Shown: positions 9,930-64,000 of the stretch, piece by piece | How positions within the stretch are numbered: the stretch's first letter is position 1 | Layout: each line of letters starts with the position of its first letter | DNA from: a virus | Taxonomy: Duplodnaviria > Heunggongvirae > Uroviricota > Caudoviricetes | Length of the DNA: 64,000 bases | IMG/VR virus record: IMGVR_UViG_2579778842_000003 | Direction: 5' to 3' (one strand) | Made by a program: the position numbers and the translations under genes | Notes under the pieces: model-generated | Seen by the model: the letters and a program-made list of their open reading frames with translations, nothing else | What the model was told of the DNA's origin: nothing | Database searches by the model: none

Positions 9930-10174
9930 AAAAGCGATACTACACAGTAAAGCATGGGACGCTACGAGCATTACAAGAGTTTGCTGACAAGCATAACGTT
10001 GAGGTGCGCAGGGAAGGGGGAAGTAAAGCTCTGCGTATGTACCGTCCGGATGGGAAATGGCGTACGGTCGTCGATTTCAAAACTAACAGCGTTCCCCAGG
10101 GCGTCCGTGACCGGGCATTCGAAGAATGGGAGCAGATCATCATAGATAACGCATTGCTCCTGAATGCTGATTAA
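9926..10174 (+). CDS. lxc: Lxc/Bof C1 co-repressor, 82 aa
   Basis: 82-aa ORF at the expected position, length as recalled for P1 Bof; followed by strong terminator. Confidence 0.6.
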   Translation: MKKRYYTVKHGTLRALQEFADKHNVEVRREGGSKALRMYRPDGKWRTVVDFKTNSVPQGVRDRAFEEWEQIIIDNALLLNAD

Positions 10175-10210
10175 TTTATCGGGCAGTTTTATCTGCCCGA
10201 TAAATTTTTA
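10175..10210. terminator. Bidirectional intrinsic terminator between lxc and the convergent SIR2-like gene
   Basis: Perfect 12-bp inverted repeat TTTATCGGGCAG / CTGCCCGATAAA with 6-nt loop, followed by TTTTTA. Confidence 0.6.
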
Positions 10211-10220
10211 TCGACCACAA

Positions 10221-11528
10221 TTACACTATATTCTTAACTATAAGGTTGGCGTCCTTCAAGGTGCCTAATGTTTCAATGTGGTTTTTTATCATTAATCTAT
10301 TTGAGGCAATTATTGCAGGCCATCGTGTTTCCCAAGCTCTGTAAGCATACCAAGAAACTCCCCAATTCCTTTCTTTACTCATATGACCCATCGAGTATTC
10401 AACTGCGTCTAAATATGTTTTTTCATACTTAGTATTGCTAACCTCTATGATGCTTCCAAAATATATAAGCCATTTTGCCAACTGTTCATATTGCTCCCAC
10501 GCTCCGTTATTCCTTGTTAACTTTCTCTTTTTTTCTATTATCCTTTCGAAAAGAGAAACGACTTTATCATCATTCCAATCTAAACCTTCCGATATAATTG
10601 ATGATATAATTTGATAAAATGAATCCTCTAATTTAAGATATTCATTTTTATAAGTATAAGCCCCCGAAACAACTTTTCTGATATTTTCGCGCGCTCTTTC
10701 AATGATGTCTTTAATGAGAGACATCTTATAACTTAATCGACTAAAGAAACAATCTATTTCTGTATTGTCAATTACCCTTATACCAAAGCAATAGAAGTAA
10801 TAATCCTTCATATCTTGACTTACTTTGTTGCGAGATATCAAAAAGATATTAGAGCACAGGGCATTATTTTTCGAAAATTTTTTATAGTCATTTATAATTG
10901 CTTTAAGATTTGTGTCGCTTAAAGAATACCCTAATATCGCAACTGTATTTTCATGCAGCATCGTACTAAGTTTTCGTGAAAAATAAGTATCGGAATTTAT
11001 AAATCTGAAGTAATCATCTGAAGTGACAATCATATTTTTTGGCGAATCAATAGAGCCATGAACATGATATATTTTCACCTTGGATGGATACTTTGGAATT
11101 GGCAGGCCGGGCGTGATAGACTGTACACTTTCATCTCCAACCAAGCATTCAGCCAACTTGTCATAATTTGTTGTAATGACACGGAATGAGTTTTTTTGGA
11201 AAAAATCTTTTATATTTGATATGTCTTCTCCAAGTTGAATTGGAGATATGATGTCAACAATTTCATCATAAATCGACTTACCCTCAATATTGAGCTTCAA
11301 AGATAGTATTTGTGCGGCTTCTTCAAGACTCAGTGCTGGTGGTTTATCATCAGGGAATAACGTGTCTTCCAACTTTTTGGCATTGTGAACTTTGCTGCAA
11401 ACTTTTTTTAATAGTTCCTTCCACGTTGGAGCTTCACCGTTCGAGACTGCCTTTGAAAAGCCAGTCCCGGTAAATAGACAAAGCCTGCTTGTAGCGGCAG
11501 CGTATGCTAACTCAACATATTCGCTCAT
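10221..11528 (-). CDS. SIR2-family (SIR2_2/ThsA-type) NAD-binding domain protein with uncharacterised C-terminal region, 435 aa
   Basis: Motifs in order: LFTGTGFS (GAGxS-like), PTWKELL, ITTNYDKLAE, YHVHGS (catalytic HG), ILGYSLSD; visibly AT-rich versus flanks; GGAG SD 8 nt before ATG. Confidence 0.7.
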   Translation of the reverse strand: MSEYVELAYAAATSRLCLFTGTGFSKAVSNGEAPTWKELLKKVCSKVHNAKKLEDTLFPDDKPPALSLEEAAQILSLKLNIEGKSIYDEIVDIISPIQLGEDISNIKDFFQKNSFRVITTNYDKLAECLVGDESVQSITPGLPIPKYPSKVKIYHVHGSIDSPKNMIVTSDDYFRFINSDTYFSRKLSTMLHENTVAILGYSLSDTNLKAIINDYKKFSKNNALCSNIFLISRNKVSQDMKDYYFYCFGIRVIDNTEIDCFFSRLSYKMSLIKDIIERARENIRKVVSGAYTYKNEYLKLEDSFYQIISSIISEGLDWNDDKVVSLFERIIEKKRKLTRNNGAWEQYEQLAKWLIYFGSIIEVSNTKYEKTYLDAVEYSMGHMSKERNWGVSWYAYRAWETRWPAIIASNRLMIKNHIETLGTLKDANLIVKNIV

Positions 11529-11584
11529 TACTTACTCCATTTACTTATAGTTCTATGGAGAAGTATACCCTAATGCATTGACGT

Positions 11585-12253
11585 TTATAGATAATTTCCT
11601 TTTCCAGTTAACTCCCCTTTAGGCACCCGTTTTTGTGCCAGTGTTTGGGTTCCGCGAATTATGTTAATCAGAGGGCTTAGTAACGATGATTCCTGGCGGG
11701 CATCAACTTCTCCTGCCATTGCCCTAATGTAGTCGGCGCTTGCAACGTTGTTATATTCCGTTGCGAAGCAGCATAACAACGTCAGAACGTGCTCTGTCGT
11801 TATTTCGCTCCAGTTGATGTTGAAAAATTCATCGCCTTTTTTGTCATGTTCGGAATCGAAGATGCTTTGGTGAAGGATGTATTTGCCGGATTCCTTGCGC
11901 GGTAACTTGATCGCTTTCTGGCGTTCCAATTCCTTGTAAATCTGCATCGCTTCAATCAGTACCGGTCTGCCGTTCATGAAGGGATCACGCAACCTTACAC
12001 GCTGGCCAACTCGACCGGTAATAAAGCTGTTTTCCTCTTCCACCAGCACGATAAAACCCTTTTCCTCTTTTTCTCGCAATTCGCGCAGCAGCTGGAGTTC
12101 CATATCGCGGCGGCGTTCAGGGTAGCTGGTCCGCTCAGCCATTATCAGCTCATTGTTGATCCATGCGGCAGTCATTGACGCCGGTTTGCCGACGCTCATC
12201 GAAACAACGCATATTTTCTTATCCATAGCGCCCCTACAAAAAAGAAAAGCCAC
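11585..12253 (-). CDS. Mat-like protein (position of P1 mat), 222 aa; true start may be internal Met
   Basis: ORF between ref and the cargo slot; synteny only. Confidence 0.35.
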   Translation of the reverse strand: MAFLFCRGAMDKKICVVSMSVGKPASMTAAWINNELIMAERTSYPERRRDMELQLLRELREKEEKGFIVLVEEENSFITGRVGQRVRLRDPFMNGRPVLIEAMQIYKELERQKAIKLPRKESGKYILHQSIFDSEHDKKGDEFFNINWSEITTEHVLTLLCCFATEYNNVASADYIRAMAGEVDARQESSLLSPLINIIRGTQTLAQKRVPKGELTGKGNYL

Positions 12254-61607: not shown

Positions 61608-62117
61608 ATGGGGCACAATAACACTAAGGGAAACCGTAAATTTATTAAGGGCCGCTATACTGCCAACGCGGCCAAAGGCGAACGACTGGTATCTTCTGAA
61701 TTCCAGCTCACTTTTGCAGGCCATGAAGATATCAGCGTACTGGTTCGCACGTCGCAAATTCCTGAAATGACCCGCGAGGATGTGGAGGACTATGGTCCGA
61801 ATGGTGTGAAGTTCAACCAGCACGGTCCAATTCGAAACTCTGGGGAAATCCAGGTCCAGTGCGTGGAGACTATCGAAGGCGATATTCTTCAGTTCATTAA
61901 AGATCGCATTGCGGCGAAGGACTATGTTGATATCACGATGGCTGCTACCCCTGAATCCAAATCTTCCGGGGTTAACGCTGTGACAAAAGCTGCTACAACA
62001 ATTGAAATGTTGGACTGCAAAATCTACAGTGATGCAATCGACTTTAGTACCGAAGATGTGACTGCCGCTGTGCGCCCGTCACTTCGTATCGTCTACAACT
62101 GGATTGAGTGGGATTAA
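61608..62117 (+). CDS. Structural-module protein, 169 aa
   Basis: Last gene of operon, followed by terminator. Confidence 0.4.
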   Translation: MGHNNTKGNRKFIKGRYTANAAKGERLVSSEFQLTFAGHEDISVLVRTSQIPEMTREDVEDYGPNGVKFNQHGPIRNSGEIQVQCVETIEGDILQFIKDRIAAKDYVDITMAATPESKSSGVNAVTKAATTIEMLDCKIYSDAIDFSTEDVTAAVRPSLRIVYNWIEWD

Positions 62118-62148
62118 GTGTTATCCCTTGTACTTTTAATCTTCTTCG

Positions 62149-62166
62149 GGGGAGGTTTACCTCCCC
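62149..62166 (+). terminator. Terminator hairpin at the end of the structural operon
   Basis: GGGGAGGT-TT-ACCTCCCC then TTGA. Confidence 0.5.
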
Positions 62167-62414
62167 TTGATACAACCGCATTCCACCGCCTAGCGAATAG
62201 AGTAAAATAACATCTTGTAAATACTCTGGTATGAAGTGAGTGTAAACTAACAGTTACCTATTAATAAATACTCCTATACTTTTCTACCTTAAATATTTAG
62301 TATGCACATGGTTAAATTTATGTAGCGTCAAAGTTTGTGAAGGCAAGATGTCCGTTAATCTTTGTCGAAGCATATATGGTTCTAGGAAGTATTGGCTTAT
62401 TTAAGAGGAATGTC

Positions 62415-63407
62415 ATGTTACGTATCAATGATATGAGCAATATTATTGTAGGTATTTACAGCAAAAAAAATGAAGAAAAATCATTTGAGTATATGTACTC
62501 TTATCTGACAAGGAAAACAGCTTATTTAACACGTGAGTTTATTCGTGATGGTAATCAGGATAAAGAATTATTAAAAAATACCTATATAGAAGCATTGTCT
62601 TGGCTTTTTGCAATCTGTGATAAACTTGAAATACAACCACAGGAAGCATTTTATAAAAAATTTCCTAGTTGCTGTCCTTATTGCTTAGGGGCGCCTTGTT
62701 CCTGTTCTCAAACACACAGAAAGCCAGAGAAAATAAGAAGCGCAAAAGGAATTAAAGATGAGCTTTTCAATAAATATAACGCTATTAAACCTATGCAATT
62801 TCCGCCTTATGCGCCACGAATGATTAATGACATCTATCCGTCGAATAGAACCATTTGGTCTACTTTTGGTGGGTTTTATCATTCATCCAGGTTATTCGAA
62901 GAGTTGGGTGAGTTGCAAGAGGCTTATGCTAAATCAATTGAAGATAAAAATTACAACAAAGAAAATCTTCATGAAGAGTGTGCTGATATATATGCTTGGT
63001 TGTTTTCTTTATGGGGGATTATTTTTAAAGATGATGATCTTGGCGAGGCGTTTGAAAGTTATTATCTAAATGGTTGTCCTGTCTGCAATAAAAGAGAATG
63101 TGTTTGTGTCAGTTATTCAGGGAAGATTAGTAAAACTGATGAGAAAAGAGCATCATTGGAAAAACTTAAACAAGAGTTAGAACTTCTCTTGAAGGATGAG
63201 ACGACAGGTGAGTTTAAGGAGAATTTAGAGTCTGCTATATCTGCAATTAAAGATGCGATAGACTCAGGAAAAGATGCAGATAGCAGAAGAACTTTATCGG
63301 AAGTCGAAAGTGTTCTTGACTCAATCGAAAAAAATTCAGCCAAGATGTCTAGTGTGGCAAGTAACGCCCTTAATGTTTTTAATGTAATCAGTAAGTTATT
63401 CCAATAA
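62415..63407 (+). CDS. AT-rich cargo protein with MazG-like NTP-pyrophosphohydrolase motifs and two Cys clusters, about 330 aa
   Basis: FEELGELQEAY and HEECADIYAWLFSL resemble the paired MazG/HisE helices; CCPYCLGAPCSC and CPVCNKRECVC; AAGAGGA SD before ATG at 62415; strongly AT-rich. Confidence 0.5.
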   Translation: MLRINDMSNIIVGIYSKKNEEKSFEYMYSYLTRKTAYLTREFIRDGNQDKELLKNTYIEALSWLFAICDKLEIQPQEAFYKKFPSCCPYCLGAPCSCSQTHRKPEKIRSAKGIKDELFNKYNAIKPMQFPPYAPRMINDIYPSNRTIWSTFGGFYHSSRLFEELGELQEAYAKSIEDKNYNKENLHEECADIYAWLFSLWGIIFKDDDLGEAFESYYLNGCPVCNKRECVCVSYSGKISKTDEKRASLEKLKQELELLLKDETTGEFKENLESAISAIKDAIDSGKDADSRRTLSEVESVLDSIEKNSAKMSSVASNALNVFNVISKLFQ

Positions 63408-63749
63408 TGGTGCCCACCGGTTTGTTAGAAAATGAACCGGTGTTGTATTATTTATTATTAAATTAATTTTAATCCTAATAGATGGATGTTTGTTGTGGAT
63501 ATAATTTGTTTAAGTTTTAGGTGTATTTTTCCATATATAATCTAGGTGGTATTAGCAAAGCAAGTATGGAATTTTGTTAACAGCTAGATATTTCTGAAAG
63601 TCATCATGTCGCGAAGGCTATTGGGAGATATGGTCTGAATCTTTGCATGATGTGAAATAACTCCTTCTACTTCATTGTGTTTTACACTATTGGGGAGAAA
63701 AGGGTGCATTGAGGTTACCAGACACACGAAGAGTGGCGGGGATCACTCC

Positions 63750-64000
63750 CATAAGCGCTAACTTAAGGGTTGTGGTATTACGCCTGATATGATTTAACGT
63801 GCCGATGAATTACTCTCACGATAACTGGTCAGCAATTCTGGCCCATATTGGTAAGCCCGAAGAACTGGATACTTCGGCACGTAATGCCGGGGCTCTAACC
63901 CGCCGCCGCGAAATTCGTGATGCTGCAACTCTGCTACGTCTGGGGCTGGCTTACGGCCCCGGGGGGATGTCATTACGTGAAGTCACTGCATGGGCTCAGC
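63750..64000 (+). mobile_element. IS186 (IS4 family), left end, truncated by window edge
   Basis: Terminal repeat CATAAGCGCTAACTTAAGGGTTG at 63750; flanking G/C-rich target GGCGGGGATCACTCCC. Confidence 0.75.
63805..64000 (+). CDS. IS186 transposase, N-terminal part only
   Basis: Own translation MNYSHDNWSAILAHIGKPEELDTSARNAGALTRRREIRDAATLLRLGLAYGPGGMSLREVTAWAQ, recognised as IS186 transposase N-terminus. Confidence 0.75.
   Translation, partial: MNYSHDNWSAILAHIGKPEELDTSARNAGALTRRREIRDAATLLRLGLAYGPGGMSLREVTAWAQ

What the first reader, a model, noticed from the sequence alone, without database searches (positions are those of the whole stretch)
62200..63749. Second AT-rich cargo gene with MazG-like pyrophosphohydrolase motifs and Cys clusters, adjacent to IS186
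After the structural-operon terminator, composition switches to strongly AT-rich DNA. It encodes a roughly 330-aa protein with two helix motifs typical of MazG/HisE-type all-alpha NTP pyrophosphatases (EELGELQEA and EECADIYAWL), a possible degenerate second MazG-like half (IEALSWLFAICDKLEI), two CxxC-type cysteine clusters and a coiled-coil tail. It is followed by about 340 bp of AT-rich non-coding DNA and then IS186. Phage MazG-like enzymes are linked to nucleotide-signal or alarmone hydrolysis, so this could be a counter-defence or a nucleotide-depleting defence gene.
Basis: partly seen in the sequence, partly recalled or inferred. Interest (0 to 1): 0.7.

Follow-up and report, generated by a model that had tools for sequence, protein, structure and literature searches.

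The report
Tandem MazG-like cargo gene in P1
A rare, horizontally acquired gene in a P1-type phage-plasmid encodes an uncharacterised nucleotide-pyrophosphatase-like enzyme whose relatives are fused to classic bacterial immune domains, so it is most likely a new single-gene anti-phage defence, though nobody has tested it.

Summary
Window 62415-63407 (+) encodes a 330-aa protein in a 1.54-kb AT-rich cassette (62151-63689, GC about 0.33 against 0.50). The cassette lies between the P1 tail gene bplB and a hok/sok locus. IS186/IS421 starts at 63750.

The family has about 1,000 clusters at 50% identity, spread patchily across bacteria. The acidic residues are 93-96% conserved and all eight cysteines about 100%.

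Relatives carry TIR, CHAT, cytidine deaminase, PD-T4-6-like kinase or GGDEF domains. One clade always has a two-TM partner gene. Close homologues sit in moron slots of P2-like, lambdoid and filamentous prophages.

The gene is in 19 of 5,426 complete E. coli genomes, about 3% of P1-like elements. It is essentially absent from lytic phages and matches no PADLOC model.

Best reading: a nucleotide-targeting defence or superinfection-exclusion gene. This is inferred, not shown. Counter-defence is less likely.

The parts
62151..63689 (+). AT-rich cargo cassette of about 1.54 kb, inserted between the bplB terminator region and the 3' flank of hok
   Evidence: Compared with a P1-like plasmid whose slot is empty (L016). 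Homology stops about 33 bp after the bplB stop codon and resumes at window 63690. GC is 0.30-0.37. No other E. coli DNA matches it at 65-70% identity or more.
62148..62166 (+). GC-rich hairpin GGGGGAGG-TTTA-CCTCCCC after bplB, at the left edge of the cassette
   Evidence: Read directly from the sequence. It differs from the bplB terminator of empty-slot plasmids.
62403..62409 (+). Shine-Dalgarno AAGAGGA, with 5 nt between it and the ATG
   Evidence: Sequence. It supports the ATG at 62415 rather than the GTG at 62337.
62415..63407 (+). Gene for the 330-aa tandem MazG-like zinc-knuckle protein (WP_000944483.1, annotated 'MazG-like family protein')
   Evidence: AlphaFold model mean pLDDT 81.9, with the core at about 90.
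62433..62723 (+). Repeat 1 (aa 7-103): degenerate MazG-like hairpin plus the first knuckle. The catalytic positions are R33, K34 and Y37.
   Evidence: hhalign repeat 1 against repeat 2: probability 99.5%, E 1e-22.
62673..62705 (+). Cys knuckle 1, C87-P-Y-C90-x4-C95-x-C97
   Evidence: C87, C90 and C95 are Cys in 160 of 160-161 aligned relatives and C97 in 158 of 160.
62811..63125 (+). Repeat 2 (aa 133-237): catalytic MazG-like hairpin with E162, E163, E166 ... E188, D191, plus the second knuckle
   Evidence: Pfam MazG weak hit. PHROG 2245 E 4e-6. PDB profile hit 1vmg E 9.7e-5 over aa 156-218. Acidic residues 93-96% conserved.
63075..63107 (+). Cys knuckle 2, C221-P-V-C224-x4-C229-x-C231
   Evidence: Cys in 167-168 of 167-168 relatives.
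63123..63404 (+). C-terminal four-helix tail (aa 237-330). It varies between clades.
   Evidence: Helices 237-259, 262-284, 287-307 and 312-329, pLDDT 58-79. Only generic helical-bundle hits.
63415..63452 (+). Intrinsic-terminator-like hairpin CACCGGTT...AACCGGTG followed by a T-rich run
63453..63689 (.). AT-rich non-coding remainder of the cassette, with no assignable feature
   Evidence: No ORF of 20 aa or more lies wholly within this stretch (the only one entering it, the 47-aa GTG ORF at 63584-63727 on the minus strand, runs across the cassette boundary at 63690). No Rfam match. Folding z-score -1.6. No remnant of the partner gene.
63690..63749 (-). Conserved 3' flank of the hok/sok locus, ending in half of the hairpin GGCGGGG-ATCACT-CCCCGCC that IS186 split
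   Evidence: 97% identical to the empty-slot plasmid L016. In relatives without the IS, the hokD stop codon lies 12 bp beyond this point and the sok RNA scores 113.9 bits.
63750..64000 (+). Left end of IS186/IS421 (not part of the gene). It continues past the window end.
   Evidence: The terminal repeat starts at 63750. The transposase is annotated 'IS4-like element IS421 family' in the identical plasmid NZ_CP020936.1. Ten of 17 plasmids with the gene lack the IS, since their matches stop at query base 1601.

Best explanation
The gene is a horizontally acquired, self-contained accessory ('moron') gene of a P1-type phage-plasmid. It most likely protects the lysogen against other phages by acting on nucleotides.

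Architecture: the protein is a single-chain pseudo-dimer of two MazG-type all-alpha NTP-pyrophosphatase repeats, each capped by a four-cysteine (presumably zinc) knuckle. Only repeat 2 keeps the Mg2+-binding EExxE...ExxD site. Repeat 1 has basic residues (R33, K34) at the same positions. I infer that repeat 1 helps bind the phosphate chain or an allosteric nucleotide.

Proposed mechanism: on infection the enzyme hydrolyses (d)NTPs, or a phage-specific or modified nucleotide, to the monophosphate plus pyrophosphate. This would starve phage replication. The four-helix tail would serve for oligomerisation or regulation.

Shown here: the anatomy, the fold, the conservation of the catalytic and Cys residues, the cargo status, and the immune-type fusions and contexts of relatives.

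Inferred only: enzymatic activity, substrate, trigger, zinc binding and the anti-phage phenotype.
For: Fold and active site:
- The family profile hits MazG SSO3215 at E 9.7e-5.
- The internal repeat is supported at E 1e-22.
- E162, E163, E166, E188 and D191 are 93-96% conserved and the eight Cys about 100% conserved in 175 diverged relatives.

Immune associations of the same module:
- N- or C-terminal TIR, CAP12-type TIR, cytidine/dCMP deaminase, Ser/Thr kinase and GGDEF fusions.
- CHAT protease fusions.
- The fused kinase matches the validated PD-T4-6 defence family at E 6e-57.
- A deaminase-fused relative lies beside a 1,471-aa STAND NTPase and an HD-CE protein.
- Most fused members keep the catalytic motif.

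Partner gene: a conserved 248-aa two-TM protein follows the gene in every complete locus of the roughly 54%-identity clade, in four different contexts.

Moron behaviour:
- The cassette fills a variable P1 slot that is otherwise empty or holds pmgF-rlfB-rlfA.
- A 79%-identical copy lies between gpS and gpV of a P2-like phage. An accessory/defence hotspot is described among the P2 tail genes, downstream of GpL. I did not check that it is this same S-V gap.
- Other copies are in lambdoid early/nin regions, at a prophage end and in the accessory slot of a Vibrio inovirus.

Distribution:
- It is rare and patchy: 19 of 5,426 E. coli genomes against 688 with P1-type bplB.
- Scattered hits occur in many phyla, often with GC below that of the host.
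- One of 50,697 phage records holds a homologue.

Literature: MazG has been predicted, but not validated, as a defence domain (PMC13092281). MazG is also proposed as an NTP-targeting effector that replaces calcineurin-CE in PUA-Cal-HAD systems.
Against: - There are no experimental data for this protein or family.
- No PADLOC model matches it.
- The window protein alone is below Pfam's MazG cut-off.
- Foldseek against PDB gave no significant hit with the full-length model.
- Effector domains are swapped onto an otherwise constant module. That pattern fits a sensor at least as well as an effector, so in the solo protein the killing or blocking step is uncertain.
- About 10 of 175 relatives have lost the acidic residues, so hydrolysis is not universally required.
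- Two distant relatives sit next to thymidylate kinase among housekeeping genes. This hints that some members may have a metabolic role.
- The E. coli clade has no partner gene, and nothing shows how activity would be held in check.
Confidence: 0.55

Rival explanations
1. Counter-defence. The phage-plasmid uses the enzyme to destroy host immune or stress nucleotides that contain a pyrophosphate bond, such as (p)ppGpp/(p)ppApp, ADPR-derived Thoeris signals or dITP-type signals. This would let P1 replicate in defended hosts.
For: The active site is of the MazG type. The gene is carried by phages. P1 relatives are known to invest in anti-restriction functions such as Dar (own knowledge).
Against: Only 1 of 50,697 phage records has a homologue, and it is a temperate filamentous phage. 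Only 16 of 2.9 million viral contigs carry it, and the nearest ones are the P1-like element (11 loci 100% identical) and P2-like phages; the rest were not classified. Many relatives are chromosomal in non-phage contexts and are fused to TIR, CHAT, deaminase or PD-T4-6-like kinase domains, or are paired with a membrane protein. Those are architectures of host immunity, not of inhibitors. The gene is followed by its own terminator-like hairpin and lies outside the phage operons, like a lysogenic-conversion gene; no promoter was identified.
Confidence: 0.1
2. House-cleaning or nucleotide-pool enzyme. It would act as a dimeric-dUTPase-like or DCTPP1-like sanitising pyrophosphatase that removes dUTP or non-canonical dNTPs for the benefit of phage or host DNA replication, with no immune role.
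For: The best structural matches are dimeric dUTPases. The all-alpha NTP-PPase superfamily is classically 'house-cleaning' (Moroz et al. 2005, cited). Two distant relatives are adjacent to thymidylate kinase. Mobile MazG genes without known immune roles exist, for example integron iMazG (PDB 2q73 among the weak hits; the rest is own knowledge).
Against: The gene is present in only about 3% of P1-like elements, so it is not needed for the phage. E. coli already has Dut and MazG (own knowledge). The fusions to TIR, CHAT and kinase domains and the two-TM partner are unexplained by a sanitising role. Two zinc knuckles, a degenerate regulatory-looking repeat and a helical tail are unnecessary for simple house-cleaning.
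Confidence: 0.15
3. Sensor-first immune module. The tandem MazG core binds, and perhaps slowly hydrolyses, an infection-derived nucleotide and acts as a switch. The actual effector is elsewhere. In relatives it is the fused TIR, CHAT, deaminase, kinase or GGDEF domain, or the two-TM partner. In the P1 protein it would be the C-terminal helical tail, through oligomerisation or membrane action, or a host factor.
For: Effectors are swapped at either end of a constant 230-330-aa module. Some members lack the acidic residues. The two-TM partner is conserved in one clade, and a TM plus coiled-coil neighbour occurs in Pseudomonas. The E. coli clade has a hydrophobic or amphipathic C-terminus where the partner-bearing clade is hydrophilic.
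Against: 93-96% conservation of all five metal ligands points to real catalysis. The tail is poorly conserved and modelled with low confidence. No trans-acting effector is evident in the window.
Confidence: 0.17

Closest known systems
MazG-type all-alpha NTP pyrophosphohydrolases (e.g. S. solfataricus SSO3215, PDB 1vmg; A. fulgidus AF_0060, 2p06; integron iMazG, 2q73)
   Different: The known proteins are about 100 aa and form homodimers or tetramers. Here two repeats are fused in one chain and one is catalytically dead. Each repeat carries a CPxC-x4-CxC knuckle, and a 95-aa helical tail follows. The window protein is below the Pfam threshold.
Dimeric dUTPases (S. aureus phage Dut, PDB 5myd; C. 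jejuni 1w2y; trypanosomatid 1ogk)
   Same: They are the best structural match over about 140 residues, that is, over both repeats together. Foldseek also ranks them top.
   Different: Sequence identity is 6-8%. There are no Cys knuckles in those enzymes. Substrate specificity is untested. The phage Duts act in nucleotide sanitation and SaPI derepression (own knowledge), not as morons in hotspots.
Nucleotide-depletion defences (dCTP deaminase and dGTPase of Tal et al.; AvcD; PUA-Cal-HAD dNTP-depleting filament)
   Same: The proposed logic is the same: attack the (d)NTP pool. Some relatives of this protein carry a cytidine/dCMP deaminase domain with a weak PADLOC dCTP-deaminase match. MazG is proposed as an alternative effector in PUA-Cal-HAD-type systems.
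   Different: There is no homology between the window protein and those enzymes. No depletion has been measured. The trigger is unknown.
PD-T4-6 (single-protein Ser/Thr-kinase defence)
   Same: One relative (P0146) is a PD-T4-6-like kinase with this tandem-MazG module as its C-terminal domain.
   Different: The window protein has no kinase domain. The link is by domain fusion in a distant relative only.
Canonical P1 genes at the same slot (pmgF, rlfB, rlfA/DUF3800)
   Same: They occupy the same position between bplB and repL.
   Different: The sequences are unrelated. The MazG-like cassette replaces them, and other P1-like plasmids have the slot empty apart from hok/sok.

Membership tests
All-alpha NTP pyrophosphohydrolase superfamily (MazG / HisE / dimeric dUTPase) | All-alpha four-helix core fold | tested here: met
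All-alpha NTP pyrophosphohydrolase superfamily (MazG / HisE / dimeric dUTPase) | Metal-binding motif EExxE-(12-28 residues)-ExxD | tested here: met
   E162-E163-x-x-E166, then 21 residues, then E188-x-x-D191. Each position is 93-96% conserved in 175 relatives. The motif is absent from repeat 1.
All-alpha NTP pyrophosphohydrolase superfamily (MazG / HisE / dimeric dUTPase) | Significant sequence or profile match to curated MazG models | tested here: inconclusive
   The window protein scores 14.5 bits against a cut-off of 22 for Pfam PF03819. PHROG 2245 'NTP pyrophosphohydrolase' gives E 4e-6. The family profile against PDB 1vmg gives E 9.7e-5. Relatives P0142 and P0158 pass the Pfam cut-off at 27.1 and 29.1 bits.
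All-alpha NTP pyrophosphohydrolase superfamily (MazG / HisE / dimeric dUTPase) | Mg2+-dependent hydrolysis of (d)NTP to (d)NMP plus PPi | not testable with these tools
   This needs a biochemical assay.
Canonical two-domain MazG (E. coli MazG type) | Tandem of two full MazG domains without Cys knuckles, detectable by sequence or structure | tested here: not met
   E. coli MazG 3cra appears only at Foldseek E 4.2. No NCBIfam MazG model is hit. The repeats here each carry a CPxC-x4-CxC knuckle.
Dimeric dUTPase | Fold match plus dUTP/dUDP specificity | tested here: inconclusive
   The fold match is the best in PDB, but identity is 6-8% and specificity is untestable here.
Catalogued anti-phage defence systems (PADLOC-DB v2.0.0) | Match to a model of a known or candidate defence protein | tested here: not met
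   Only a spurious LmuB coiled-coil hit at E 0.018. Homologue P0014 has no hit.
Prophage-borne defence / lysogenic-conversion 'moron' | Atypical composition, own terminator, variable presence at a fixed slot, and recurrence in accessory slots of unrelated temperate phages | tested here: met
   GC 0.33 against 0.50. Terminator-like hairpin. Slot variants. Copies in P2-like, lambdoid, inovirus and prophage-end contexts. Carried by 19 genomes against 688 with P1-type bplB.
Prophage-borne defence / lysogenic-conversion 'moron' | Measured protection against phage infection | not testable with these tools
   No experiment was found in the searchable literature.
Phage anti-defence nucleotide hydrolases (e.g. 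phage MazG, Acb/Apyc-type enzymes) | Widespread in phage genomes, including lytic ones, with no immune-effector fusions | tested here: not met
   One of 50,697 phage records. Relatives are fused to TIR, CHAT, deaminase and kinase domains.

The most novel reading that the evidence does not exclude
The tandem-MazG zinc-knuckle module is a previously unrecognised, widespread immune sensor-enzyme. It would read out, and hydrolyse, an infection-specific nucleotide. Evolution has wired it to interchangeable effectors: TIR, CHAT protease, cytidine deaminase, PD-T4-6-type kinase, GGDEF and two-TM membrane proteins. The P1 version would be the minimal, stand-alone form that blocks superinfecting phages by selectively destroying phage-type or bulk dNTPs.
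Probability: 0.3. Interest if true: 0.8.

Novelty: new variant of a known kind. Interest (0 to 1): 0.62.

Why it matters
MazG-type pyrophosphatases have been predicted as immune domains, but the papers searched here report no validation. This family offers a compact 330-aa single-gene candidate. It lives in E. coli on a P1-type element, so it is directly testable with standard phage panels.

If it works, three things follow:
- A new enzymatic route (NTP to NMP plus PPi) would join the nucleotide-depletion defences.
- A new sensor or effector module shared by TIR-, CHAT-, deaminase- and kinase-containing immune proteins in many phyla would be defined.
- The bplB-repL gap of P1-like phage-plasmids would be shown to be a defence hotspot. 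P1-like elements are present in about 13% of complete E. coli genomes.

If it is instead a sanitising enzyme, the finding is of modest interest.

Tried and rejected
- Megablast of the cassette against 50,697 phage records found no match.
- The afdb50 fold library was unavailable.
- NCBIfam gave only spurious hits, so the PGAP name 'MazG-like family protein' does not come from an NCBIfam HMM.
- Rfam on 62000-64000 gave nothing.
- The 3' non-coding 300 nt does not fold unusually, z-score -1.6.
- There is no remnant of the two-TM partner gene downstream in the window. The up- and downstream DNA shares no similarity with the P2-like, lambdoid or Providencia copies, so only the CDS is shared.
- The sigma-70 consensus scan found no convincing promoter in 62151-62414. 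Its only upstream hit is the one inside bplB that corresponds by position to the predicted P2pmgF promoter of P1. The gene's promoter is therefore not identified.
- Literature searches for the accession, for MazG-like with phage-plasmid, and for MazG with TIR or deaminase fusions found no description of this family. The Rousset 2022 P2/P4 hotspot paper does not mention MazG. The DefensePredictor supplements do not list WP_000944483.
- I considered that the gene forms a unit with hok/sok and rejected it. hok/sok is present in plasmids whose slot is empty.
- I considered that IS186 brought the gene in and rejected it. Ten of 17 plasmids carry the gene without the IS.
- Context look-ups for three relatives failed.
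Full report
WHAT IS THERE

The window is 100% identical over this stretch to E. coli plasmid NZ_CP020936.1, a P1-type IncY phage-plasmid. The late operon 23-22-21-pmgG-bplB ends at 62117. After that, GC falls from about 0.50 to 0.30-0.37 until about 63700.

The mechanical ORF list gives a 356-aa ORF from a GTG at 62337. Three things place the start at the ATG at 62415 instead, giving 330 aa with a stop at 63405-63407:
- the 28-member family alignment;
- an AAGAGGA ribosome-binding site at 62403-62409;
- the RefSeq annotation, WP_000944483.1 'MazG-like family protein'.

A terminator-like hairpin follows at 63415-63442. The next roughly 300 bp hold no credible ORF, no Rfam family and no unusual RNA structure.

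The IS186 terminal repeat starts at 63750. The transposase is annotated IS421 family, and IS421 is an IS186 isoform from my own knowledge.

CASSETTE BOUNDARIES AND THE SLOT

P1-like plasmids with an 'empty' slot have only 116 bp between the bplB stop codon and the stop codon of a convergent hokD gene. Aligning one of them (L016) to an IS-free plasmid that carries the gene (L012) shows a 1.54-kb insertion. This corresponds to window 62151-63689.

Window 63690-63749 is the conserved 3' flank of hok. In IS-free relatives, hokD and a sok RNA (Rfam 113.9 bits) follow immediately. IS186 sits in a GGGG-ATCACT-CCCC hairpin 12 bp beyond the hokD stop codon. This matches the GGGG-N6/7-CCCC target preference I recall for IS186.

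Ten of the 17 PLSDB plasmids with the gene lack the IS, so the IS is a later, unrelated event.

Canonical P1 has pmgF, rlfB and rlfA (DUF3800) in this slot, and so do some plasmids. The gap between bplB and repL is therefore a variable cargo slot with at least four states.

Among 5,426 complete E. coli genomes, 688 carry P1-type bplB and 19 carry this gene. All 19 copies are on plasmids and are 99.6% identical or better. No other plasmid type among 72,556 records has it.

THE PROTEIN

Single-sequence searches are weak:
- Pfam MazG: E 0.045, 14.5 bits against a cut-off of 22.
- PHROG 2245 'NTP pyrophosphohydrolase': E 4e-6.
- PDB AF_0060 and SSO3215: E 0.03-0.3.

A profile of the 28 homologues raises SSO3215 (a MazG, PDB 1vmg) to E 9.7e-5 over aa 156-218.

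The AlphaFold model built from that alignment has mean pLDDT 81.9. The core is at about 90 and the tail at about 60-79.

The remaining hits are generic helical bundles that match the tail. Foldseek of the whole model gave no hit at E of 0.001 or better, although dimeric dUTPases and phage NTP-PPases top the lists.

Profile-profile alignment of aa 7-103 against aa 133-237 gives probability 99.5% and E 1e-22. The protein is therefore an internal duplication. Each repeat is a MazG-type helical hairpin followed by K/R-F/Y-P-x-x-C-P-x-C-x4-C-x-C.

Repeat 2 has E162, E163, E166 and E188, D191 with a 21-residue spacer. This is the classical EExxE...ExxD metal site of the superfamily (Moroz et al. 2005, cited). 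Repeat 1 has R33, K34 and Y37 at the first three of these positions.

THE FAMILY

The word-indexed search found only 28 clusters, mostly from Enterobacterales. The exhaustive profile search found 992 clusters at 50% identity with E of 0.001 or better. Of these, 449 are at 1e-10 or better and 100 at 1e-30 or better.

In the best 175 sequences, conservation is as follows:
- the five acidic residues: 93-96%;
- the eight cysteines: about 100%;
- also conserved: Y15, N19, W63, P84, the I-Y-P motif (aa 140-142), N144, K/R159 and W195.

About ten members have replaced the acids with K or R.

Most members are 325-350 aa like this one. Some are core-only, at about 230 aa. Others are longer.

The longer ones carry the following added domains:
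- N-terminal TIR (P0039, P0042, P0052, P0139);
- C-terminal TIR (P0057, P0066, P0067, P0085);
- CAP12/Pycsar-type TIR (P0172);
- N-terminal cytidine/dCMP deaminase (P0061, P0065, P0149, P0169);
- N-terminal Ser/Thr kinase (P0146, P0166);
- C-terminal GGDEF (P0145, P0153, P0158, L050);
- C-terminal CHAT protease (L045, L053).

The fused kinase matches the PADLOC PD-T4-6 and mad6 models at E 6e-57 to 4e-63. Most fused members keep the catalytic motif and the cysteines.

Named hosts include Acidobacteria, Longimicrobium, Pseudomonas, Aliivibrio, Burkholderia, Anaerolineales, Patescibacteria, a planctomycete and a Woesearchaeote. The gene's GC is often well below that of its contig.

CONTEXTS OF CLOSE HOMOLOGUES

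- The 79%-identical copy lies between gpS and gpV of a P2-like phage. [quoted passage not shown] I did not verify that the S-V gap is that hotspot.
- The 78% copy lies next to the lambda-P-like and DnaT-like replication genes of a lambdoid prophage.
- The 57% copy lies at the outer edge of a Providencia prophage, beyond the tail-fibre genes.
- The 54% copies lie in a lambdoid nin region, beside the integrase of a P2-like prophage, and in a small Pectobacterium island.
- The 29% copy lies between the gene I (zot-like) homologue and the repressor-like gene of an 8-kb Vibrio filamentous phage. CTXphi carries its toxin genes at the corresponding position (own knowledge).

In every complete locus of the roughly 54%-identity clade, the gene is followed by a conserved 248-aa protein with N- and C-terminal TM helices and a coiled-coil middle (L007, L008/L009, L014, L037). 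A Pseudomonas homologue is followed by an unrelated TM plus coiled-coil protein.

The E. coli clade has no partner and no remnant of one. A deaminase-fused relative lies beside a 1,471-aa STAND NTPase and an HD-CE protein. Two distant relatives lie directly upstream of thymidylate kinase.

INTERPRETATION

Four things are shown here:
- the protein has an all-alpha NTP-PPase fold built as a single-chain pseudo-dimer with one intact and one degenerate site;
- it has two conserved four-Cys knuckles;
- it is mobile cargo in a variable slot;
- the same module recurs in accessory positions of four unrelated kinds of temperate phage, and fused or paired with hallmark immune effectors.

From this I infer that it is an anti-phage defence or superinfection-exclusion gene acting on nucleotides (confidence 0.55).

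The simplest mechanism for the stand-alone P1 form is Mg2+-dependent hydrolysis of dNTPs, or of a phage-type nucleotide, to the monophosphate plus PPi. Repeat 1 would supply basic ligands or an allosteric site, and the tail would mediate assembly or regulation.

The deaminase fusions fit a dCTP to dUTP to dUMP logic, given the dUTPase-like fold. That is inference only.

Effectors swapped onto a constant module fit a sensor role equally well (rival, 0.17). The two readings are not exclusive.

Counter-defence (0.10) is disfavoured by the near-absence from phage collections and by the immune-type architectures of relatives.

A pure house-cleaning role (0.15) is disfavoured by rarity among P1-like elements and by the fusions. 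It is kept alive by the dUTPase-like fold and the thymidylate kinase neighbours.

COMPARISON WITH WHAT IS KNOWN

The protein belongs to the all-alpha NTP-PPase superfamily by fold and motif. It is not a canonical MazG, a dimeric dUTPase or any catalogued defence protein.

MazG as a defence domain has been predicted but, per a 2026 paper, not validated (PMC13092281). It has also been proposed as an NTP-targeting effector in rare PUA-HAD systems.

I found no description of this tandem, knuckle-bearing family or of its fusions in the searchable literature. That library omits most subscription journals.

VERDICT

The MazG-like reading is supported. Function is unproven but most likely defensive. 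I rate it a new variant of a known kind, with interest 0.62.

Noticed in passing
window 10221-11528 (-): A second AT-rich island (GC 0.36-0.41 at 10001-12000) encodes a 435-aa SIR2_2-domain protein (Pfam E 1e-23). It matches the PADLOC candidate system PDC-S25 (E 1e-26) and, more weakly, ThsA/LmuA-type SIR2 models. It is probably another defence cargo gene on the same phage-plasmid.
   Followed up: partly
window 63690-63750; L012 7541-7937: IS186/IS421 is inserted in a GGGG-ATCACT-CCCC hairpin 12 bp beyond the stop codon of a convergent hokD gene. That is inside the 3' end region of the hok mRNA of a hok/sok locus (sok Rfam 113.9 bits in IS-free relatives). Whether this changes hok mRNA processing or toxicity was not examined. 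hok itself lies beyond the window end.
   Followed up: partly
L008 11080-11826; L014 9077-9823; L007 11068-11805; L037 5187-5909: A conserved 248-aa protein with two TM helices and a coiled-coil middle always follows the MazG-like gene in the Pectobacterium/Pantoea clade (about 54% identity), in four different genomic contexts. It has no Pfam or PADLOC match. It is absent from the E. coli clade.
   Followed up: partly
L020 3619-4272; L054 9153-9779: Two distant relatives, one kinase-fused from a metagenome and one from an Anaerolineales MAG, are each immediately followed by a thymidylate kinase gene. This could be coincidence with housekeeping tmk or a functional nucleotide link.
   Followed up: no
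L003 10202-11832 (phage P1); L017 6522-7226: The same bplB-repL slot in canonical P1 holds pmgF, rlfB and rlfA. rlfA is a DUF3800 protein of unknown role. Other P1-like plasmids have the slot empty. The slot behaves as a cargo hotspot, and its other occupants may deserve the same scrutiny.
   Followed up: partly
L019 8977-14726: Beside a deaminase-fused family member lie a 1,471-aa STAND-type NTPase (nSTAND_NTPase5, faint hit) and an HD-CE domain protein. This looks like a defence-island neighbourhood in an uncultured bacterium.
   Followed up: no
window 62337-62414: The mechanical ORF extends 26 codons upstream from a GTG. Homologues and the ribosome-binding site show that the real start is the ATG at 62415. 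The upstream stretch is probably 5' UTR or promoter, and no convincing sigma-70 promoter was found in it.
   Followed up: yes
L045 2785-4485; L053 7971-9704: Acidobacterial and Methylocapsa relatives fuse the tandem-MazG module to a C-terminal CHAT (caspase-like) protease domain. I have not seen this combination described.
   Followed up: partly
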